A stretch of DNA of 47,134 nucleotides from Candidatus Micrarchaeota archaeon. GTDB lineage: Archaea; Micrarchaeota; Micrarchaeia; Norongarragalinales; JACRGE01. A program made the position numbers and the translations under genes. Position 1 is the first letter of the stretch. Each line of letters begins with the position of its first letter. Positions 245 to 24,057 of the stretch are shown in pieces. The notes under the pieces are model-generated. The model was not told the origin of the DNA. It worked only from the letters and a program-made list of their open reading frames with translations, and searched no databases. The stretch is from assembly GCA_016212465.1 (NCBI GenBank), contig JACRGE010000034.1, positions 1 to 47,134 on the forward strand. The letters run 5' to 3'.

Positions 245-415
245 CTGTTTGCGTTTCTTGGTTTAATTAAACCACAGTATCTATAGCACCCCTTCAAAGT
301 TTTGTTGGTGAACCAAGATTCTATTGATAGTTTCATGGAGTAAAAACGCTCAAACCCCAAAAAGAGAATATGAACTGAAATTTACATTAGTTATGTGGAG
401 CGATATAGTGGTGAT

Positions 416-1993
416 ATGGCTGATAGGACTAAAGCAATTGAAGAAGCAGTTTCCTTTATTACGGGCAAGAGAAACCTTGGAGAAAAAGAACTGCTTGAAC
501 TGAAAAAACACCTGAGCTTAAGGTATGGGCTGTCCGAGCTTTTAAGGAACTCCGAGATCTACGAAAAAATTCCCGAAGCAAAGAGAACAAGGAGGCTCAC
601 GCGTCTTTTGAGAATTAGGCCAGTTCGTTCCTTCAGCGGCGTCTCTGTGGTTGCAGTCATGACCCCCCCATCTAAATGCCCTGGCAGCTGCATATACTGC
701 CCTGGCGGAAGCGATTCTCCCAAGAGCTACACTGGCTTCGAGCCAGCTGCTCGCCGCGCCAAACAAAACGAATTCGACCCATTTAAGCAGGTGAGCGCGA
801 GGCTTAGGCAACTGGAGAGCATCGGTCACTCGCCTGAAAAATGCGAGCTTATCGTAATGGGTGGAACATTTAACGCCCTTCCGAGGCATTTTCAACAGGA
901 TTTTGTAAAGCACGCTCTTGACGCATTCAATGGAATAGAGAGCAGGAATCTTGAGCAATCAAAGAAATTGAATGAATGCGCGGCGCATAGGGTGGTCGGG
1001 ATTTGTTTTGAAACCAGGCCGGACTTTGCTTCTGAGAAACAGGTTTCTTCCCTCTTGGAGCTTGGTGCGACTAGACTGGAGTTGGGTGTGCAGACATTGA
1101 GCGACGAAGTCTATCAAAGAGTGGGGCGAGGGCATACAAAAAAAGAGGTGATTGAGGCAACTAGGGTCTGCAAGGACGCGCTTCTGAAAGTCGGCTATCA
1201 TTACATGCCTGGCTTGTTCGTGGAAAGGAAGAGAGACGTGCGGATGTTCCGGGAATTGTTTGAAAACCCTGCCTTCAGACCGGACATGCTGAAGATATAC
1301 CCCTGCCTCGTAGTCCCTGGCACGAAGCTTTTCACGATGTGGAAGCGCGGAGAGTATTCGCCCTACGAGGCTGAAGACGCAGCTGAAGTGATTGCTGAGA
1401 TGAAGCGCTTCATCCCTCCATATTGCAGGGTGATGCGGGTGGACAGAGACATTCCGACTGATTTGATTGCAGCAGGGGTGAGGAAAAGCAACCTGCGGCA
1501 GCTCGTCAAACAGAGGATGGAGGAGAAAGGAACCAAGTGCAGGTGCATCCGATGCAGGGAGATCGGGTTGAGGACGCTGAAGGAAAACCTTAAAATAGAC
1601 TGGAATGCGTTGGAGTTAAAGAGAAGGGATTACGAAGCGAGTGGAGGGAAAGAGGTTTTTTTGAGCTTTGAAGACGAGGAAAATGATGCGCTGATCGGGT
1701 TCCTTCGCCTCAGAAAGCCCTCGGAAAAAATTTTTAGGAAAGAGATTACAGAAAACAGTTTGGGCATACGCGAATTGCATGTCTACGGCGAGCAGGTCGG
1801 AATAGGAAAAAAGGAAATAACGGCAGCACAGCATAAGAGCTTTGGAAAAAAACTTGTGGAGGAGGCGGAGCGCATCTCTCGCGGGGAGTTCGGTGCGGAA
1901 AAACTCTTGGTGATAAGCGGCGTCGGAGTAAAACCTTATTACAGGAAGCTTGGCTTTAGAGACGACGGAGTATACCTATCGAAAAAACTTTGA
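416..1993 (+). CDS. elp3: tRNA U34 carboxymethyltransferase Elp3 (radical SAM + KAT domain)
   Basis: CPGSCIYCPGG radical SAM motif, SYTGFEP, MGGTF, ETRPD, RELHVYG and QHKSFGK..ISGVGVKPYYRKLG KAT motifs; ATG 416 follows GGTGAT SD. Confidence 0.96.
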   Translation: MADRTKAIEEAVSFITGKRNLGEKELLELKKHLSLRYGLSELLRNSEIYEKIPEAKRTRRLTRLLRIRPVRSFSGVSVVAVMTPPSKCPGSCIYCPGGSDSPKSYTGFEPAARRAKQNEFDPFKQVSARLRQLESIGHSPEKCELIVMGGTFNALPRHFQQDFVKHALDAFNGIESRNLEQSKKLNECAAHRVVGICFETRPDFASEKQVSSLLELGATRLELGVQTLSDEVYQRVGRGHTKKEVIEATRVCKDALLKVGYHYMPGLFVERKRDVRMFRELFENPAFRPDMLKIYPCLVVPGTKLFTMWKRGEYSPYEAEDAAEVIAEMKRFIPPYCRVMRVDRDIPTDLIAAGVRKSNLRQLVKQRMEEKGTKCRCIRCREIGLRTLKENLKIDWNALELKRRDYEASGGKEVFLSFEDEENDALIGFLRLRKPSEKIFRKEITENSLGIRELHVYGEQVGIGKKEITAAQHKSFGKKLVEEAERISRGEFGAEKLLVISGVGVKPYYRKLGFRDDGVYLSKKL

Positions 1994-2032
1994 AAAAACA
2001 GAACGCATGCTTCAAATTAGATATAAAGATCA

Positions 2033-2097
2033 TGGTACAGAACCGAAGCAACCCCAAGGAGGTGGAGACAATTCGAAAGTGCCTCTCTTCTGTACCA
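2033..2097 (+). ncRNA. Candidate structured RNA motif, copy 1
   Basis: Perfect 10-bp stem TGGTACAGAA (2033-2042)/TTCTGTACCA (2088-2097) encloses GCAACCCCAAGGAGGT (2048-2063), which recurs at 23071-23086 on the minus strand. Confidence 0.6.
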
Positions 2098-2234
2098 CTC
2101 ACAGTTGAGAAGACGATAACCCCATTATTATGCTGGAGCCTATGCTTTTATTTCTTATCCGATAAAAACCGAAAAATTTTCAAAATTTTATGCTTTTTAT
2201 ATTCTCTTTCCGTAATATTTACGGAGGGGGTACT

Positions 2235-2696
2235 GTGGAAGAAGTTGAAATGAAGCTGTTGTCAGAGCTCCAGGCAAACTGCAAGCAGAGCCTTCGTGAC
2301 CTTTCGCATAAACTTGGAATTCCGATGAGCACGATACACGATAAAATACGGAAGTTTGAGAAGAATGGAATTATAAAAAAGTTTTCAGCTATCATTGACG
2401 GAAGCAAACTCGGGTTTCCAATAACAGCTTTCGTTCTTGTTTCAGTCAGGCCGACTTCGAAGAAGCTGAAGGTTTCACAGCAAGAGTTGACGAAGGCCAT
2501 CTCCAAATACCCTCAAGTCCAAGAAGTCTACATCATTACTGGAGAATGGGATATCCTGGTAAAGATGAAGGGAAAAGACCTCGCAGAGATAGGGGACCTC
2601 GTGGTTTCAAAGATCCGGGAAATGCACGGAGTTGACAAGACCTTCACCATAAACATCTTCGAAACCGCCAAGGAAACTTCCGATGTCGCTGTTTAA
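2235..2696 (+). CDS. Lrp/AsnC family transcriptional regulator
   Basis: N-terminal HTH (SLRDLSHKLGIPMSTIHDKIRKFEKNGII) and RAM domain (VYIITGEWDIL); GTG 2235 after GGAGGGG. Confidence 0.93.
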   Translation: MEEVEMKLLSELQANCKQSLRDLSHKLGIPMSTIHDKIRKFEKNGIIKKFSAIIDGSKLGFPITAFVLVSVRPTSKKLKVSQQELTKAISKYPQVQEVYIITGEWDILVKMKGKDLAEIGDLVVSKIREMHGVDKTFTINIFETAKETSDVAV

Positions 2697-2759
2697 AATA
2701 CTATTCCTTCAAAAAAATAATATTTATTCAGCAGATGCGTAGTGTGTGGTGGTGGTTTC

Positions 2760-4097
2760 TTGGCTTATTCTAAAGAAATAGACGGAATCCTGAAAGCGAA
2801 AAGGATTTCAGTAGGCGATGGAGCGCGCATAACTACATCGGGAGTAGTATACGAGGGGCTCCTGATGCCAAGGATTGAAGTGGGAGACGACAACGTGCTC
2901 ATTCTGAAACTCCAGTCAGGTTACAACATCGGTCTCGAGTATTCCTCCTCAATGCAAATCGAGAAAATGGAAGCCAATGCTTTTTCAGAAAAACCGACGC
3001 CTCGATACTCCTTAAAGAAAAGCAGCCTACCGAAAATTTCCTTGATTGCAACAGGTGGCACCATTGCCTCAAAGATAGACTACCGCCTCGGTGGCGTAAA
3101 GAGCCTGCTCGAGCCCCAAGAGATATGCCAGGCGATGCCTGAGCTCGTGAATGTAATAAGCTTTAAATCACTTCTTTCGCCGTTCAAGATATTCAGCGAA
3201 AACATGTCCCCCGTAGAGTGGCAGAAGATAGCCGCCCTTGCTGCAAAGGAGCTTAATTCAGACATAAAAGGGCTGGTTATAACCCACGGCACGGACACGC
3301 TTCACTTCACTTCAGCTGCACTTTCGTTCATGCTCAAAAACCTTTGCAAACCCGTTGCACTAGTCGGAGCTCAGCGCTCTCCGGACCGAGGCAGTTTCGA
3401 CGGCGCAATGAACATGGCTTGCGCTGCTCACTACCTGCTCTCGGATGCAGCTGAAGTCGCGATCGTGATGCATGCCACGTCCAGCGACGACTATTGCTAC
3501 GCAATTAGGGGGACTAAGGTGCGGAAGATGCACACTTCAAGAAGAGATGCTTTCCGGCCCGTAAACGACCTTCCGCTTGCGAAGATATATTCCAACGGAA
3601 GAACGGAGTTCTTGAAAAAAAATTACCGTAAAAGGAGTGCGGGCAAGGTGGTTGCGGACACGGCATTTGAGAAAAAAGTTGCATTGTTGAAGGCCTACCC
3701 CGGCTCTGAGCCAGGGCTTGTTGATTTCCTGATCGACAAAAAATACAAGGGGATCGTGGTAGAGGCCACTGCGCTGGGCCAGATTCCGACGTTTACTTTC
3801 GATAAGAAAAACTCTTGGCTACCCCAAATCAAGCGGGCTGTGGAGGAGGGAATCATCGTGGCATTCGCAACCCAGTGCCTCTACGGAAGAACCAATCCCT
3901 TCGTTTACGAGACCGCCAGGGAGATGTACCGCCTGGGAGTAATCTACTGCGAAGACATGCTCCCAGAAGTCGCATATGTCAAACTTGGATGGGTGCTCGG
4001 GCACACGAGAAAAAAGGAAGAGGTAAGAAAACTCATGCTCACAAGCTTGGCAGGCGAAATAAATCCAATGCTTACTGAAGAAGAATTCCTAATCTGA
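2760..4097 (+). CDS. gatD: Glu-tRNA(Gln) amidotransferase subunit D
   Basis: N-terminal KLQSGYNIG, asparaginase motifs TGGTIASKIDY, HGTDT, GAQRSPDRGS; adjacent to gatE; probable TTG start after GGTGGT. Confidence 0.96.
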   Translation: MAYSKEIDGILKAKRISVGDGARITTSGVVYEGLLMPRIEVGDDNVLILKLQSGYNIGLEYSSSMQIEKMEANAFSEKPTPRYSLKKSSLPKISLIATGGTIASKIDYRLGGVKSLLEPQEICQAMPELVNVISFKSLLSPFKIFSENMSPVEWQKIAALAAKELNSDIKGLVITHGTDTLHFTSAALSFMLKNLCKPVALVGAQRSPDRGSFDGAMNMACAAHYLLSDAAEVAIVMHATSSDDYCYAIRGTKVRKMHTSRRDAFRPVNDLPLAKIYSNGRTEFLKKNYRKRSAGKVVADTAFEKKVALLKAYPGSEPGLVDFLIDKKYKGIVVEATALGQIPTFTFDKKNSWLPQIKRAVEEGIIVAFATQCLYGRTNPFVYETAREMYRLGVIYCEDMLPEVAYVKLGWVLGHTRKKEEVRKLMLTSLAGEINPMLTEEEFLI

Positions 4098-4119
4098 TTT
4101 ATTCAATTAAGTGCGTTAT

Positions 4120-5940
4120 ATGAAAGCGAAGATAGGGATAGAGGTCCACCAGAGACTTGCAACTGAGAGGAAGCTCTTCTGTAACTGCAGCAGCACAGTC
4201 TCTAATGAAGTGCCTTGTCTGACTGTGAAAAGGCGAATGAGAGCCGTTGCCGGAGAGCTGGGGGGAGTTGACCCAGCTGCTGCTTTTGAGATGAGCAGGG
4301 GAAGAGAGTTCACTTACCAGCTCTTCAAAAACTCTAGTTGTCTGGTGGAATGCGATGAAGAGCCGCCTCACGAACTGAACAAAGAGGCTCTTGAGACCAC
4401 GCTTGAAGTCGCTCTCCTGCTGAATGCAAAGCGGGTTAATGAGCTCCACGTAATGAGGAAAACAGTTGTAGACGGCTCTGCTGCAAGCGGCTTCCAGAGA
4501 ACGATGTTGGTTGGAACCGACGGAAGCATCAAGACCTCGAGGGGACCTGTTGGGATACTATCCGTCTGCCTTGAGGAAGAAAGTGCAGGCATCGTTGAAG
4601 CCTTTGAAGCAGGCACGGTTTACCGGCTTGACCGGCTCGGAATTCCGTTGATCGAAATCGCGACTTCCTCTAACATCGTCGACGGCGCGCATGCACGCGA
4701 AGTAGCTGAAAAGATCGGCATGTTGCTTCGTTCGACAGGAAAAGTGCAAAGAGGCATTGGAACCATTCGCCAAGACCTCAACATTTCCATCGAAGGAGGT
4801 GCGAGAACTGAGATAAAAGGCGCTCAAGAACTCGAGCTCCTGCCCAAGCTTGTTGACAACGAAATACGTAGGCAGAGCGCCCTCATTGAAATAAAAAACG
4901 AGTTGAAGAAAAGAAACCCAGGGAAGTTCGTATTCGCTCCAGTTGACCTGTCCCATGCATTTTCGAAAACACACTGTGGCATCCTGAAGAAAATCCTGGA
5001 AAGAGGCGGTGCCATAATGGGATTTAGACTGCCTGCGTTCAGCGGCCTCTTGGGAAGAGAATTGATGCCGAACCACAGGTTCGGAACCGAATTGAGTGGT
5101 TATGCGAAGGTGGTCGGGGTAAGCGGGTTGATTCACTCCGACGAAGGCTTGGAGGCATATGGTTTCTCTGAAGCGGAGTTGGCTGAAGTAACCAAGCTGC
5201 TATCCTGTTCTTCAGGCGATGCCTTCATTTTGTGCGGGGGGGAAAGGAAGAGAGTTGCAGCAGCGTTGAAGGCAGTTTTCGAGCGGGCGTTGCAGGCCTT
5301 TGAGGGCGTAGTGAAGGAAACGCGGCGGGCCGAAGGCGAGCTATCTGTTTACCTGCGTCCCCTGCCTGGCTCTCAGAGGATGTACCCTGAGACAGATGTT
5401 ACACCAATCAAAATAGAGCGGAAGGAAGTGGAAGAGATTCGTAAAAAACTGCCTCTTTCTTGCGATGAGAGGAAGAAAAAATACTTTGAGTGGGGCCTCG
5501 GCCAAGTCCTTGCTGAAAAGATGTTGAAGTCACCTGATTTCACCTTGTTCGAAGAAATCGTTGAAAAAACCAGGGCTGAAGGAAAGACTGTTGCAGGCAT
5601 CCTGCTCGAAAGCATGGTTGCCCTGAGGCGGGAAGGCTTTGCAGTGGATTCCATTGAAAAACAGCATTTGATAGAGTTGTTTTCGCTTTACAAAAAGAAT
5701 AGGATTGGAAAAGCAGCCATTGAAGAAGCGTTGAAAGACGTTTCCAGAGGCAAAAGCGTCCAAGAAACCATTAAAGAAAAGAACCTGGAGTTGTTTGACG
5801 ACCCCAAGCTCAAAAAACTCGTTTCCGAATTGCGCTCGCAAGGCATTTCCGATCCAAAGCAGGTATTCAGCGAAATGATGCGGCGCTATAGAATGAACGT
5901 GGATCCGAAGCGCCTTCAGCTTCTGGTGGGCGTGAAATAA
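4120..5940 (+). CDS. gatE: Glu-tRNA(Gln) amidotransferase subunit E
   Basis: KIGIEVHQRL, KLFCNC, MRKTVVDGS..SGFQRT, RLDRLGIPLIEI, RGIGTIRQD, RMYPETD. Confidence 0.97.
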   Translation: MKAKIGIEVHQRLATERKLFCNCSSTVSNEVPCLTVKRRMRAVAGELGGVDPAAAFEMSRGREFTYQLFKNSSCLVECDEEPPHELNKEALETTLEVALLLNAKRVNELHVMRKTVVDGSAASGFQRTMLVGTDGSIKTSRGPVGILSVCLEEESAGIVEAFEAGTVYRLDRLGIPLIEIATSSNIVDGAHAREVAEKIGMLLRSTGKVQRGIGTIRQDLNISIEGGARTEIKGAQELELLPKLVDNEIRRQSALIEIKNELKKRNPGKFVFAPVDLSHAFSKTHCGILKKILERGGAIMGFRLPAFSGLLGRELMPNHRFGTELSGYAKVVGVSGLIHSDEGLEAYGFSEAELAEVTKLLSCSSGDAFILCGGERKRVAAALKAVFERALQAFEGVVKETRRAEGELSVYLRPLPGSQRMYPETDVTPIKIERKEVEEIRKKLPLSCDERKKKYFEWGLGQVLAEKMLKSPDFTLFEEIVEKTRAEGKTVAGILLESMVALRREGFAVDSIEKQHLIELFSLYKKNRIGKAAIEEALKDVSRGKSVQETIKEKNLELFDDPKLKKLVSELRSQGISDPKQVFSEMMRRYRMNVDPKRLQLLVGVK

Positions 5941-21666: not shown

Positions 21667-22710
21667 ATGAGAATCATTCATTTTGACAAAAGGAATAATG
21701 AAATGAAGTTAGAGCCCGAGAGCTTGGAGGACCTTTGGTATCTCACCAAGGTAGTGGAGCCAGGTGACAAGGCGATTGCGCGCTCGCTGAGGCGGTTCAA
21801 GATAGAGCTTGAGCGAGCAGAATCAGGGGAAAAAAAGCCAGTTTTGATTGAGTTGAATGTGGAGTCCGTTGAGTTCTCGGAGAGCATGAACAAACTGCGT
21901 TTAACAGGCAAAATCCTTGCAGGCACTCCAGAAGAATACGTTTCTGTAGGTTCCCACCATACGCTTGACATTGAACCGCACCATTCCTTCACTTTGAAAA
22001 AAGAGTTTGGTCCCTATCACCTCAAGGTACTTGAAGAGGCGAAAAGAAGTGCGAGGCAGCCTGTGATACAGCTTGTTGTGATGGATGATGAAAAGGCTAC
22101 TGTCTGCTCTCTTGAAAGAAGAGGCCTGTCTCCCTTCATAGAGATTCAGAGCCGCGCGAGGAAACGAGATCCAGAGTCCTACGAGGAGTTCAGGAAGAAG
22201 TACTTCTCTGAACTCATGAAATTAGTTGAAGAAGGCAAGAGGAAAACCATTATTGCGGGCCCTGGCTTTGCGAAAGAAGATTTCAAGAAATATGTCGCAG
22301 AAAAGAAGCCCAAGTTGATTTCAAACATGATCTTCGAGCACGTGAGCTCCTCTGAAAGAAGTGGGGTTTATGAACTCCTGAAGAAAGGCGTGGTGGAAAG
22401 GGTTTTTGGAGAACAGAAGCTGGAAGAGGAATTTATTGCTCTTGAGAAACTGAAGAAAAGCATTGCGTCCGAGGATGGGCTTGCCTGTTATGGCGTGGAT
22501 GAAGTGAAAAACGCAGTTGAATTGAATGCTGTTGAAGAAATCCTTGTGCTAGACGAGCTATTGCGGAAAAACAAGGAGGCCCAGGAGCTAGTTGAAAAAG
22601 CGGAAAAGAAAGGCGCTAAGATATTAGTCTTCGATTCAGGAGACGAAGCCGGCCAGGAGTTCAAGACCTATAAGCTAGCTGCATTGCTGAGGTTCAGAAC
22701 TAGCTACTGA
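21667..22710 (+). CDS. pelA: mRNA surveillance protein pelota
   Basis: PESLEDLWYL, KLRLTGKI, GSHHTLDI, IIAGPGFAKEDF, AALLRF. Confidence 0.96.
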   Translation: MRIIHFDKRNNEMKLEPESLEDLWYLTKVVEPGDKAIARSLRRFKIELERAESGEKKPVLIELNVESVEFSESMNKLRLTGKILAGTPEEYVSVGSHHTLDIEPHHSFTLKKEFGPYHLKVLEEAKRSARQPVIQLVVMDDEKATVCSLERRGLSPFIEIQSRARKRDPESYEEFRKKYFSELMKLVEEGKRKTIIAGPGFAKEDFKKYVAEKKPKLISNMIFEHVSSSERSGVYELLKKGVVERVFGEQKLEEEFIALEKLKKSIASEDGLACYGVDEVKNAVELNAVEEILVLDELLRKNKEAQELVEKAEKKGAKILVFDSGDEAGQEFKTYKLAALLRFRTSY

Positions 22711-22792: not shown

Positions 22793-23011
22793 TCATACGC
22801 TGATTTCGGTGATTTTCTCCTTAACCGAGGGTGGTCCCCGCTTGGCTGATTGGTAGTAGAGAGCTACAAGCAAGAAGAAGAGGAATATGCTTATGAGGAC
22901 GCCTCCCATGAACAATACTGCTGTTGCTGTGAAAAACAACAGGTATACATAGCCATAACCCTGCGTGCTCTGTTGCTCAACCTCTGTAGTGCCTTCCTTG
23001 TACACAGCCAT
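22793..23011 (-). CDS. Small (72 aa) membrane protein
   Basis: Central ~33-residue hydrophobic stretch; upstream BRE/TATA. Confidence 0.65.
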   Translation of the reverse strand: MAVYKEGTTEVEQQSTQGYGYVYLLFFTATAVLFMGGVLISIFLFFLLVALYYQSAKRGPPSVKEKITEISV

Positions 23012-23029: not shown

Positions 23030-23110
23030 GGATTGCCTTCGGTGGGAATCAAGAGTGCAAGTAACGGATTACCTCCTTGGGGTTGCCTCTTTATTTCCCA
23101 CCAGCAATCC
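23030..23110 (-). ncRNA. Candidate structured RNA motif, copy 2 (putative 5' leader)
   Basis: Nested stems GGATTGC/GCAATCC, GGTGGGAA/TTCCCACC, AAGAG-GCAA/TTGC-A-CTCTT around GCAACCCCAAGGAGGT. Confidence 0.62.
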
Positions 23111-23162: not shown

Positions 23163-23178
23163 ATATATAAGCTTTTCG
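23163..23178 (-). promoter_or_regulatory. BRE/TATA promoter
   Basis: Minus strand CGAAAAGCTTATATAT. Confidence 0.65.
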
Positions 23179-23334: not shown

Positions 23335-24057
23335 GTGAACGGAATAAATTCAAAGTACAATATTACCGAAGCAACTGTTGAGGTATTGGAAGCATTGCCG
23401 TGTTTAAAAATCCCTCTTCGTTACGACTTGCTTAATCTATCAGCCTTGGCTAGATTCATTAAGCCAGCTGTTGAAAAGAAGATGAAGGGCTCAAGCATCG
23501 GAATCGATGCAATCACAATCGCAATCAGAAGGTACGCTGAAGCAGTTTCAAAGGCAGAAGCCCCCAACAACGTCCTTGACGTCATAAAAGGAAGCAGGCT
23601 TACATTTGGAACTGACTTGTCTATGGTTCATCTCAAGAGAACTCCCGAACTCTACCTGAAGCTCATTGAGTTGAGCAAGACTGTGAACTGGTACGCAGGC
23701 GAGCGGATGTACATCATCCAGAGGACCGACGACATGTCTGTCGTAGTAACACCTCGTTTTATGCAATTGCTTAGGACTCTGGTGAGCTCTCCTCAAGAGA
23801 TTCTTGGAGAACGAGAGGACCTGGCGATCATCACCGCTTATACGCCCCCAAAATCACTTGAGACCCCGGGAGTGATTGCGTATTTCGCGAACCTGCTTGC
23901 AGAAACTGGCGTCAACATCCTCCTTACCTTCTCTACCTTCTACACGATTTCTTTCGTGATTGAAGCGGAGGACGCTGGAAGGGCTTACGAAAAGCTCTCT
24001 ATCGCAATAAAGAATGTGCAGGCAGTTTCAACAGACTCAACTGAGACTGTCCCATAA
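23335..24057 (+). CDS. ACT-domain amino-acid-binding regulator with N-terminal helical/HTH-like domain
   Basis: LLNLSALARFI..AITIAIRRY N-terminus; C-terminal ACT motif ETPGVIAYFANLLAETGVNI. Confidence 0.85.
   Translation: MNGINSKYNITEATVEVLEALPCLKIPLRYDLLNLSALARFIKPAVEKKMKGSSIGIDAITIAIRRYAEAVSKAEAPNNVLDVIKGSRLTFGTDLSMVHLKRTPELYLKLIELSKTVNWYAGERMYIIQRTDDMSVVVTPRFMQLLRTLVSSPQEILGEREDLAIITAYTPPKSLETPGVIAYFANLLAETGVNILLTFSTFYTISFVIEAEDAGRAYEKLSIAIKNVQAVSTDSTETVP

What the first reader, a model, noticed from the sequence alone, without database searches (positions are those of the whole stretch)
2033..2097. Structured non-coding motif (copy 1) with a 16-nt core shared with a site 21 kb away
Seen: copy 1 reads TGGTACAGAA-CC-GAAGCAACCCCAAGGAGGT-(16 nt)-TGCCTCTC-TTCTGTACCA. 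Copy 2 (minus strand near 23.07 kb) reads TGGTGGGAA-ATAAA-GAGGCAACCCCAAGGAGGT-(11 nt)-TGCACTCTTGA-TTCCCACC. The core is identical, while the closing stems differ in sequence yet both pair, as expected for a conserved RNA structure. Both copies are intergenic and lie next to amino-acid-sensing regulators (Lrp/AsnC here, an ACT protein there). The GCAACC..GGT..GC arrangement recalls the SAM-I P3 helix, but the rest of SAM-I is absent. The core also contains a perfect SD sequence, AAGGAGGT. Inference: an undescribed archaeal riboswitch-like leader, sRNA family or protein-binding RNA.
Basis: partly seen in the sequence, partly recalled or inferred. Interest (0 to 1): 0.82.

Follow-up and report, generated by a model that had tools for sequence, protein, structure and literature searches.

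The report
New small RNA family in Micrarchaeota
The two look-alike hairpins belong to an undescribed family of small structured RNA genes found in one order of tiny DPANN archaea, most likely read from the strand opposite to the one first proposed, with a function still to be found.

Summary
The 16-mer occurs exactly twice in the window (0.01 expected) and both copies sit in hairpins whose stems differ but pair.

They belong to a family. It has 8 hits in this 1.2 Mb genome and is found in 47 of 68 genomes of the same archaeal order. It was not found in 116 or 132 sampled genomes of other orders. Named holders are Candidatus Micrarchaeota MAGs.

Three helices covary strongly: 91.8% of cells paired against 43-62% when slid, and 123 compensatory cells against 35 in shuffles. 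No Rfam family matches.

Evidence is a BRE/TATA promoter about 48 nt upstream, a conserved CGAAUUYUG leader, more G-U than A-C pairs, and oligo-T downstream.

So the invariant loop reads GGAUUGCCUCCUUGGGGUUGCC, an anti-SD-like sequence resembling the 16S rRNA 3' tail.

This makes it a stand-alone sRNA gene family, not a riboswitch leader. The strand of copy 2 stays ambiguous. Function is inferred only, and no RNA data were available.

The parts
2030..2100 (-). Copy 1: sRNA hairpin (P1a, P1b, P2 and a large loop ending in CCUCCUUGGGGUUGC), read on the minus strand.
   Evidence: R2 hit of 39.9 bits, E 2.2e-6 genome-wide; alignment to the model. It has 11 Watson-Crick and 2 G-U pairs and no A-C pair in this orientation. 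The minus strand folds to -28.0 against -22.4 kcal/mol for the plus strand.
2048..2063 (.). The 16-nt core of copy 1 as reported (GCAACCCCAAGGAGGT on the plus strand).
2136..2154 (-). Putative promoter of copy 1: a TATA-like AAATAAAA (2147-2154, minus strand) followed by GGCTCC (2136-2141).
   Evidence: Seen directly in the sequence. It lies 47-54 nt upstream of the hairpin, where 33 of 52 family members have a TATA-like box. The GGCTCC(G/A)(C/G)C element just 3' of the TATA is shared with own-genome paralogues C46 and C71. This is an inference: my TATA pattern did not pick this site up.
23037..23106 (+). Copy 2: family hairpin. The plus strand is assigned by homology to the family; the strand actually transcribed is unresolved.
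   Evidence: R2 hit of 38.6 bits, E 4.8e-6. Folds well on both strands. No TATA-like box in the 110 nt examined upstream on the plus strand (row L046).
23071..23086 (.). The 16-nt core of copy 2 (reads GCAACCCCAAGGAGGT on the minus strand).
23164..23178 (-). BRE-like cgaaaag (23172-23178) plus TATA-like cttatata (23164-23171) on the minus strand.
   Evidence: Read directly. Assignment as a promoter rests on the archaeal BRE/TATA consensus, which is recalled knowledge.
22793..23011 (-). Orphan 72-aa hydrophobic ORF, 30 nt downstream of copy 2 on the minus strand. It is uncertain whether it is a real gene.
   Evidence: ORF list. No Pfam family. No homologue in the 67 other genomes of the order with this query.
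395..1993 (+). ELP3-like radical-SAM/GNAT gene, convergent with the copy 1 sRNA.
   Evidence: Pfam Radical_SAM, Radical_SAM_C, ELP3_N and Acetyltransf_1. The same gene sits next to the hairpin in G001, G026 and G006.
2235..2696 (+). Lrp/AsnC regulator gene, divergent from the copy 1 sRNA gene.
   Evidence: Pfam AsnC_trans_reg and HTH_24. An Lrp-like ORF is called in this position in G001 only.

Best explanation
Both sites are members of an undescribed multi-copy family of small structured RNA genes. The family is restricted, as far as searched, to one order of Micrarchaeota (DPANN archaea).

Anatomy
- Each member is a hairpin of about 65-85 nt with three helices: P1a (GUGG/CCAC in the main orthologue), P1b (CGAGAG/CUCUCG) and P2 (..GGC/GCC..).
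- The helix sequences differ between copies but stay paired.
- The hairpin is closed by a loop of 25-40 nt. The 3' half of the loop is invariant: (GGAUUG)CCUCCUUGGGGUUGC.
- Transcription starts from the family's own BRE/TATA promoter. The transcript begins about 15 nt before the hairpin with CGAAUUYUG and ends near an oligo-T run.

Status of each step
- Shown: the family, its spread, the helices, and the absence of any Rfam match.
- Strongly inferred: the strand and the promoter.
- Inferred only (about 0.25-0.3): the mechanism. The RNA acts in trans through its invariant loop. That loop looks like the 16S rRNA 3' tail (GGAUCACCUCCU) and carries the anti-Shine-Dalgarno pentamer CCUCC. It could pair with AAGGAGG-type ribosome-binding sites and so dampen or tune translation initiation. 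Alternatively it could serve as the handle of a lineage-specific RNA-binding protein.

The confidence given below is for the identity claim (stand-alone sRNA gene family on the opposite strand), not for the mechanism.
For: Family and spread
- The core, with up to 2 mismatches, occurs 10 times in the own genome against 1 for the reversed control.
- R1 and R2 find 8 members in the own genome.
- 47 of 68 genomes of the order have a hit at E <= 0.01, and 18 of 22 high-quality ones do.
- In the class sample, 23 of 34 same-order genomes hit and 0 of 116 from other orders.
- In the phylum sample with R2, 15 of 18 same-order genomes hit and 0 of 132 others.
- The exact 22-mer is found in 18 GTDB contig stretches, 17 of them Candidatus Micrarchaeota or 'archaeon' MAGs. 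All 17 score 38-80 bits with R2.
- 20 of 23 metagenome stretches holding the 22-mer carry a full hit.

Structure
- On 65 distinct sequences, 91.8% of cells pair against 43-62% when partners are slid.
- All 15 pairs of P1a, P1b and P2 show changes on both sides.
- There are 123 compensatory cells against 34.9 +/- 4.8 in shuffles, reached by 0 of 500 shuffles (same picture on 53 rows).

Strand
- The opposite strand has the lower folding energy in 21 of 28 hairpins.
- G-U cells number 55 against 28 A-C cells. G-U exceeds A-C in 29 rows, the reverse holds in 9, and 14 are equal, out of 52.
- A TATA-like box lies 45-80 nt upstream in 33 of 52 members, with a peak at 41-59 nt, against 6 of 52 for the other orientation.
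- The leader CGAAUUYU lies 8-32 nt upstream in 31 of 52 against 0 of 52.
- BRE-like cgaaa directly precedes the TATA in the printed flanks.
- A T5+ run lies within 40 nt downstream in 20 of 52 against 6 of 52.

Not a known family
- Rfam gives 0 hits at gathering score on the window and on 16 loci.
- Only noise appears at E <= 10 around copy 1 and at E <= 1 on six loci of relatives.

16S resemblance
- The own 16S 3' ends read GGAUCACCUCCU and AGAUCACCUCCA, against GGAUUGCCUCCU in the loop.
Against: - No transcript data could be had. Only DNA runs hold the stretch, so the strand and the ends are inferred.
- Copy 2 has no TATA-like box on the plus strand, but it has a canonical BRE/TATA on the minus strand.
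- The alignments behind the pair counts were fitted to a model built in the proposed orientation, which biases them towards it.
- Copy 1's own promoter is weak (AAATAAAA) and was not picked up by my TATA pattern.

Against the mechanism
- Extended complementarity to the loop is not enriched at RBS-like sites in the own genome. CCCA precedes AGGAG at 2 of 405 RBS-like sites and at 12 of 2834 other sites. GGAGG followed by CAA is no more enriched than other A-rich triplets.
- CCUCC is only moderately accessible in predicted ensembles, with a mean unpaired probability of 0.41.
Confidence: 0.72

Rival explanations
1. It is a cis-acting leader (riboswitch-like or protein-binding 5' UTR element) on the reader's strand, with AAGGAGGU as a sequestered Shine-Dalgarno sequence that controls the downstream gene.
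For: - Copy 2 has a canonical BRE/TATA on the minus strand about 60-75 nt upstream. An ORF starts 30 nt after the hairpin on that strand.
- Copy 2 and C91a fold somewhat better in this sense.
- The core is a very good complement of the 16S tail.
Against: - No start codon lies at SD distance from the core in either copy.
- Copy 1 is separated from the Lrp gene by the Lrp gene's own AT-rich promoter region.
- In relatives the hairpin in this sense is often followed by the 3' end of a convergent gene, or flanked by genes on the other strand.
- The promoter, leader, G-U/A-C and T-run statistics all favour the other strand.
- Downstream genes are unrelated from copy to copy.
- The ORF behind copy 2 is an orphan, found in 1 of 68 genomes.
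- No riboswitch model matches.
Confidence: 0.07
2. It is a stand-alone sRNA on the proposed strand, but it works purely as a protein-bound RNP scaffold. The invariant loop and the U-rich leader would be protein handles, for example for an Sm-like protein, and the SD/anti-SD look is coincidental.
For: - The 15-22 invariant loop nucleotides are far longer than the 5-nt anti-SD and identical across families.
- Paralogues keep the loop while the stems drift, as in RNP families.
- The leader GAAUUUUG and the loop motif UUCGAUUUCU are U-rich. The likeness to an Sm site is recalled, not tested.
- No target enrichment was found.
Against: - No partner protein was identified.
- No gene is conserved next to the RNA.
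- No known protein-binding motif (K-turn, ACA box, C/D boxes) was seen by inspection.
Confidence: 0.2
3. At copy 2 only, a type-I toxin-antitoxin-like or cis-antisense pair exists. The family hairpin on the plus strand lies antisense to the structured 5' leader of a small hydrophobic protein gene (22793-23011, minus strand). Alternatively that leader is a near-perfect (21 of 22) trans target or sponge for the main family sRNA.
For: - A 72-aa hydrophobic orphan ORF with its own BRE/TATA and a leader of about 135 nt contains the hairpin.
- The sense copy is complementary to the invariant loop of the other members.
Against: - The ORF has no homologue in 67 other genomes of the order and no Pfam family.
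- It has no SD in front of it.
- No plus-strand promoter for the antisense RNA was seen.
- No other family member has such an ORF at this position.
Confidence: 0.06
4. It is a DNA-level repeat: a MITE end, a palindromic protein-binding site or a recombination site, not an RNA.
For: It is an inverted repeat around a fixed core, dispersed in several copies per genome. C18 and C51 carry near-identical copies at contig ends.
Against: - The arms differ completely between copies, so they are not terminal repeats of one element.
- Pairing is kept through G-U pairs and compensatory changes.
- Orthologous copies stay in syntenic places across families.
- A promoter and a leader accompany them.
- 20 of 22 viral 17-mer loci have no model hit, and the other 2 are weak at 25.7 bits.
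Confidence: 0.03

Closest known systems
Archaeal and bacterial trans-acting sRNAs that mask ribosome-binding sites with C-rich or CCUCC loops (for example Methanosarcina mazei sRNA41 and staphylococcal UCCC-motif sRNAs; recalled, no paper text read)
   Same: A stand-alone gene with its own promoter. A short structured RNA with an invariant pyrimidine-rich element complementary to AAGGAGG-type SD sequences. Sibling copies exist in one genome.
   Different: No sequence or model homology (Rfam negative). The invariant block is 15-22 nt, not 4-6 nt. No targets were found and no enrichment of complementary RBSs. Found only in one Micrarchaeota order among the genomes searched.
3' tail of 16S rRNA (anti-Shine-Dalgarno region)
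   Same: GGAUUGCCUCCU in the loop against GGAUCACCUCCU at the 3' end of the own 16S on C77. That is 10 of 12 positions, and both differences are transitions.
   Different: Helix 45 and the rest of the 16S are absent. The loop continues with UGGGGUUGCC, which the 16S lacks. It is a separate gene of about 100 nt in up to 8 copies.
Archaeal single-hairpin H/ACA guide sRNAs
   Same: Size of 65-85 nt. A two-step hairpin. Several paralogues per genome with differing stems. Own promoters.
   Different: No conserved ACA 3' of the stem: the flank is CCAC-NG-UCUC, and ACA is present in some rows only. No K-turn or K-loop GA pairs. The internal loops of 2-5 nt are too small for a pseudouridylation pocket. 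Here the conserved part is the loop, which is the variable part in guide RNAs.
   Different: No four-way junction, and no match to any SAM model at E <= 10. Not placed in front of a gene it could regulate. Probably on the wrong strand.

Membership tests
Any Rfam 15 family | Score at or above the family's gathering threshold | tested here: not met
   There are 0 matches on the whole window and on 16 loci of relatives and paralogues. At E <= 10 or E <= 1 only noise appears: mir-373 at 18 bits against a threshold of 69, and sR53 at 20 bits against 49.
SAM-I riboswitch | Four-helix junction with conserved P1-P4 core, detected by RF00162 | tested here: not met
   No SAM-family hit even at E <= 10 in 1900-2300. 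The consensus structure here is an unbranched P1a/P1b/P2 hairpin.
Riboswitch or cis-leader in general | Sits in the 5' UTR of, and on the same strand as, a recurring class of downstream genes, with an expression platform | tested here: not met
   Downstream genes differ between copies and often lie on the other strand. The promoter points the other way in 33 of 52 members. Copy 2 is the single possible exception.
Archaeal H/ACA sRNA | ACA box directly 3' of the lower stem | tested here: not met
   The 3' flanks read CCAC(A/U/C)(G/C)-UCUC. ACA occurs only where CCACAG happens to contain it.
Archaeal H/ACA sRNA | Pseudouridylation pocket (large internal loop) and a K-turn or K-loop in the upper stem | tested here: not met
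   Internal loops between P1a, P1b and P2 are 2-5 nt. No tandem G-A pairs are conserved (alignments). This was judged by inspection only.
C/D box sRNA | C box RUGAUGA near the 5' end and D box CUGA near the 3' end | tested here: not met
   Neither box is conserved in the alignment or its flanks. The only Rfam C/D hit is below threshold, at 20 against 49 bits, and on the other strand.
Stand-alone archaeal sRNA gene | Own BRE/TATA promoter at a fixed distance, and oligo-T after the RNA | tested here: met
   A TATA-like box lies 41-59 nt upstream in most of the 33 of 52 positive rows, against 6 of 52 for the other orientation. BRE-like cgaaa precedes it. A T5+ run lies downstream in 20 of 52 against 6 of 52. 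Actual transcription could not be tested.
Stand-alone archaeal sRNA gene | Conserved secondary structure supported by covariation | tested here: met
   All 15 P1a/P1b/P2 pairs show changes on both sides, and 0 of 500 shuffles reach the observed values. The extra mini-hairpin P4 (GCCUC/GGGGU) has no such support and a low predicted probability of 0.13.
RBS-masking (anti-SD) sRNA | Accessible anti-SD element and mRNA targets with matching ribosome-binding sites | tested here: inconclusive
   CCUCC is invariant. Its mean unpaired probability is 0.41. No enrichment of extended complementarity was found at RBS-like sites of the own genome. The 5-nt match alone fits any SD.
MITE or transposon end | Terminal inverted repeats of a shared sequence, and target-site duplications | tested here: not met
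   The arms share no sequence between copies, and only the loop is shared. Target-site duplications were not looked for systematically.

The most novel reading that the evidence does not exclude
A lineage-specific, multi-copy sRNA family whose invariant loop imitates the 3' tail of 16S rRNA (GGAU..CCUCCU) acts as an anti-Shine-Dalgarno decoy. It would compete with the 30S subunit for SD-led mRNAs, or titrate a factor that recognises the 16S tail. That would give these genome-reduced, host-associated archaea a global RNA-based brake on translation initiation. Paralogues under different promoters, such as the copy divergent from an Lrp/AsnC gene, would tie the brake to nutrient state.
Probability: 0.12. 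Interest if true: 0.8.

Novelty: new member of a known kind. Interest (0 to 1): 0.58.

Why it matters
Almost nothing is known about non-coding RNAs of DPANN archaea. These organisms are uncultured or grow only in co-culture, and Rfam covers them poorly.

What is found here is a well-supported, order-wide structured RNA. It has its own promoter, up to 8 paralogues per 1.2 Mb genome, and a 22-nt invariant loop.

It is a ready candidate for a new Rfam family and a handle for annotation: the hairpins otherwise tempt gene callers into false small ORFs.

It is also a concrete object for asking how genome-reduced archaea regulate translation, given the loop's likeness to the anti-SD tail of 16S rRNA.

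Tried and rejected
- RNA evidence: no RNA holder was listed. Only three DNA runs of one groundwater study came up, one holding 0.92 of the sampled words, one 0.08 and one next to none.
- Target search in the own genome: sites complementary to the invariant loop over 10 nt or more are scattered, mostly in coding sequence, with no rRNA or tRNA target standing out. CCCA before AGGAG is not enriched at RBS-like sites: 2 of 405 against 12 of 2834 (one search used a wrong register and is void). GGAGG+CAA is 2-fold over a mononucleotide expectation, like other A-rich triplets.
- A third helix P3 (AAUUC/GGAUU) inside the loop fits some rows but has no consistent register, so it was dropped.
- P4 (GCCUC-CUU-GGGGU) is invariant, so covariation cannot test it. 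It is thermodynamically weak. It was kept only as a possibility.
- MAFFT alignments did not place the stems in register, and RNAalifold on them found only P4. I therefore seeded a model from 4 well-aligned orthologues with a hand-set structure and iterated.
- Viral contigs: the 17-mer is found in 22 stretches, which could be chance matches. Only 2 give weak model hits of 25.7 bits, so no viral link.
- The named relative found through ELP3, a Candidatus Norongarragalinales MAG at 54% identity, has no hit in the 1.5 kb either side of its ELP3 gene.
- Literature: four searches (listings and abstract starts only, no paper text read) showed nothing on such an RNA. Supplements are closed and may hold ncRNA lists I could not see.
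- H/ACA, C/D, SECIS, T-loop/tRNA-like, SRP helix 8, K-turn and origin-recognition-box readings were considered from memory and dropped after inspection of the alignments.

Full report
**1.

Window 2033-2097 (+) and 23041-23103 (-) read exactly as described. GCAACCCCAAGGAGGT occurs only at 2048-2063 (+) and 23071-23086 (-), even when 2 mismatches are allowed. The chance expectation is 0.01, and 0 of 100 shuffles gave two matches.

Both sites fold as a two-step hairpin around the core. Copy 2 folds far better than shuffles on either strand (z -6.6 and -4.5, 0 of 200 shuffles). Copy 1 alone is unimpressive (z -1.4 and -1.9).

Pfam confirms the neighbours:
- Copy 1 lies between an ELP3-like gene (395-1993) and Lrp/AsnC (2235-2696), which is followed by GatD.
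- Copy 2 lies between a Pelota/eRF1-like gene (21667-22710) and an ACT-domain gene (23335-24057).

**2. It is a family, not a pair**

The window is contig C10 of a 1.2 Mb, 104-contig, 46% GC genome that is 91% complete.
- The core, with up to 2 mismatches, occurs 10 times there against 1 for the reversed control.
- Each good copy is a hairpin with different stems.
- The core with up to 1 mismatch is present in 15 of 31 relatives, own genome included.

I built a covariance model from four orthologues (R1) and a second one from 52 hits (R2).

R2 finds 8 members in the own genome:

| Place | Bits | Note |
|---|---|---|
| C46 | 56.9 | the 'main' orthologue |
| C91 | 45.5 | |
| C71 | 40.2 | |
| copy 1 | 39.9 | |
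| copy 2 | 38.6 | |
| C33 | 37.5 | |
| C51 | 26.6 | near-identical to C18, at a contig end |
| C18 | 25.1 | near-identical to C51, at a contig end |

Only the two reported sites hit within the window.

Spread:
- In the order, 47 of 68 genomes have a hit at E <= 0.01, and 18 of 22 high-quality ones do. Usually there is one strong orthologue plus 0-3 weaker paralogues.
- Outside the order nothing was found: 0 of 116 genomes in a class sample (R1) and 0 of 132 in a phylum sample (R2). Stricter filters applied to these large searches.
- The exact 22-nt loop occurs in 18 GTDB contig stretches. Seventeen are titled Candidatus Micrarchaeota or 'archaeon' MAGs and one is a Burkholderiales MAG.
- R2 scores the 17 at 38-80 bits and the Burkholderiales one at 25 bits.
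- Twenty of 23 metagenome stretches holding the 22-mer carry a full hit.
- The nearest named relative of the ELP3 gene is a Candidatus Norongarragalinales MAG, class Micrarchaeia.

**3. Structure**

On 89 hits (65 distinct sequences):
- The helices P1a, P1b and P2 are paired in 91.8% of cells, against 43-62% when the partners are slid.
- All 15 of their pairs show changes on both sides.
- There are 123 compensatory cells against 34.9 +/- 4.8 in shuffles. No shuffle out of 500 reaches any observed measure (same on 53 rows).

These alignments are fitted to the model, and relatives are not independent. The slid control and the completely different stems of the paralogues argue that the signal is real.

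The R2 consensus is gAGuGG-aug-cGaGag-gacaa-GGC-aaauucGauUUuUaaa-GGAUUGCCUCCUUGGGGUU-GCC-uuuuu-cuCuCg-ua-CCaC.

Inside the loop:
- A 5' motif (A/U)UUCG(A)UUUCU is semi-conserved.
- A candidate helix P3 has no consistent register.
- A candidate mini-hairpin P4 (GCCUC-CUU-GGGGU) is invariant, so covariation cannot test it. It is predicted to be weak, with a mean pair probability of 0.13.

**4. Which strand**

- **Folding energy.** The opposite strand folds better in 21 of 28 hairpin windows, with totals of -899.5 against -825.4 kcal/mol. The set includes a few coding false positives.
- **Wobble pairs.** In the model orientation there are 55 G-U cells against 28 A-C cells. G-U exceeds A-C in 29 rows, the reverse holds in 9 and 14 are equal, out of 52.
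- **Promoter.** In this orientation the flanks show a textbook archaeal promoter, cgaaa(g)-TTTAAATA (the BRE/TATA consensus is recalled). A TATA-like box lies 45-80 nt upstream in 33 of 52 members, peaking at 41-59 nt, against 6 of 52 without a peak for the other orientation.
- **Leader.** A conserved leader CGAAUUYU lies 8-32 nt upstream in 31 of 52 against 0 of 52 (one reversed row, L087, was dropped). The spacing puts the start of transcription at or just before CGAAUU.
- **Terminator.** A T5+ run follows within 40 nt in 20 of 52 against 6 of 52.
- **Gene context.** Contexts do not fit a leader.

Copy 1 specifically:
- It has a weaker TATA-like AAATAAAA at 2147-2154 (minus strand), at the family's usual distance.
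- It has the same GGCTCC(G/A)(C/G)C element after the TATA as own-genome paralogues C46 and C71.
- It is divergent from the Lrp/AsnC promoter and convergent with ELP3.
- ELP3 sits upstream of the hairpin in G001, G026 and G006 as well, and an Lrp-like ORF follows it in G001.

**5. Copy 2 is the exception to keep open**

- No TATA-like box precedes it on the plus strand (row L046).
It would then be the leader of a 72-aa hydrophobic ORF (22793-23011).
- That ORF has no Pfam family and no homologue in the 67 other genomes of the order.
- In that sense the hairpin would be 21 of 22 complementary to the loop of the main sRNA.
- Possible readings are a cis-antisense pair, a type-I-toxin-like pair, or a trans target. 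None can be tested here.

**6. What it is not**

- Rfam 15 gives nothing at gathering score on the window or on 16 loci, and only noise at permissive E-values.
- SAM-I is therefore not supported.
- H/ACA features (ACA box, pocket, K-turn) and C/D boxes are absent on inspection.
- The arms are not shared between copies, so it is not a MITE.
- Viral contigs do not carry it.

**7. How it may work (inferred)**

On the proposed strand the invariant loop reads GGAUUGCCUCCUUGGGGUUGCC. The own 16S genes end in GGAUCACCUCCU (C77) and AGAUCACCUCCA (C63). The loop thus repeats the anti-SD tail with two transitions.

The most economical idea is a trans-acting sRNA whose loop pairs with AAGGAGG-type ribosome-binding sites, or mimics the 16S tail for a binding factor. 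A pure protein-handle (RNP) role is about as likely.

Tests here did not help the pairing idea:
- No enrichment of extended complementarity at RBS-like sites.
- Scattered 10-mer matches only.
- CCUCC about 41% unpaired in predicted ensembles.

I put about 0.25-0.3 on RBS/anti-SD-related action, about 0.2 on a pure RNP scaffold, and leave the rest open.

**8. Limits**

- No RNA data: only DNA runs of one groundwater study hold the stretch.
- E-values of my models are rough because calibration was short.
- Counts across relatives are not independent.
- Four literature searches (listings and abstract starts only) showed no description of this RNA. Supplements were closed.

**9. Verdict**

This is a real, well-supported and apparently undescribed sRNA gene family of one Micrarchaeota order. 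It is not a riboswitch. Its function is open, with an intriguing likeness to the 16S anti-SD tail.

Noticed in passing
G000 C77:901-2711 (L097) and C63:4481-7411 (L098): The genome holds two different 16S rRNA genes. Both are longer than the 1478-position model (1811 and 2931 nt), so both carry insertions, about 0.3 kb and 1.4 kb. Their 3' ends differ (GGAUCACCUCCU and AGAUCACCUCCA). Possible causes are introns or homing-endonuclease inserts, a second operon, or contamination of the bin.
   Followed up: partly
G000 C91:17200-17353 (L003:1407-1552): Two family hairpins lie in tandem, 77 nt apart. The second (C91a, core GCAAGCCCAAGGAGGC) is degenerate and missed by both models.
   Followed up: partly
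G000 C18:412-479 and C51:27598-27664: Two near-identical family copies share the promoter-side flank up to the end of contig C51 and diverge on the other side. This is either a recent duplication or an assembly repeat at contig ends.
   Followed up: no
G000 C9:17689-17703 (L004): A 14-nt sense-strand piece of the core (GCAACCCCAAGGAG) sits just after a stop codon. It is followed by a GC-rich hairpin and T8. It is either a possible target site or a decayed family member.
   Followed up: no
G000 C94:~3199-3240 (minus strand): The ribosome-binding site of a second Lrp/AsnC-like gene (MDKIDVEIIETLKKNGRIPFS...) reads GUUGCAACCCAAGGAGGU. That is the family core in sense with one C missing, 13 nt before the ATG.
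   Followed up: no
G024 C1:45739-46202; G029 C7:9329-9784; G014 C10:19903-20565; G055 C29:45501-45944: In family f9, two family members lie 300-600 nt apart on the same strand, which suggests local tandem duplication.
   Followed up: no
L108 (LNEG01000131.1, titled Burkholderiales bacterium MAG), 5476-5550: The exact 22-nt loop occurs in a contig binned as a bacterium, with a weak model score of 25 bits. It may be a mis-binned archaeal contig or a chance match.
   Followed up: no
window 2742-5940: GatD (2742-4097) follows the Lrp/AsnC gene directly, and the next ORF (4111-5940) was not annotated here. The copy 1 sRNA gene thus sits at the head of a putative Lrp-GatD gene string.
   Followed up: no
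L043, L045, L047 (own-genome copies C46, copy 1, C71), 35-40 nt upstream of the hairpin: A shared element GGCTCC(G/A)(C/G)C lies between the TATA box and the predicted start. It was seen only in this genome's paralogues and may be a binding site of a common regulator.
   Followed up: no
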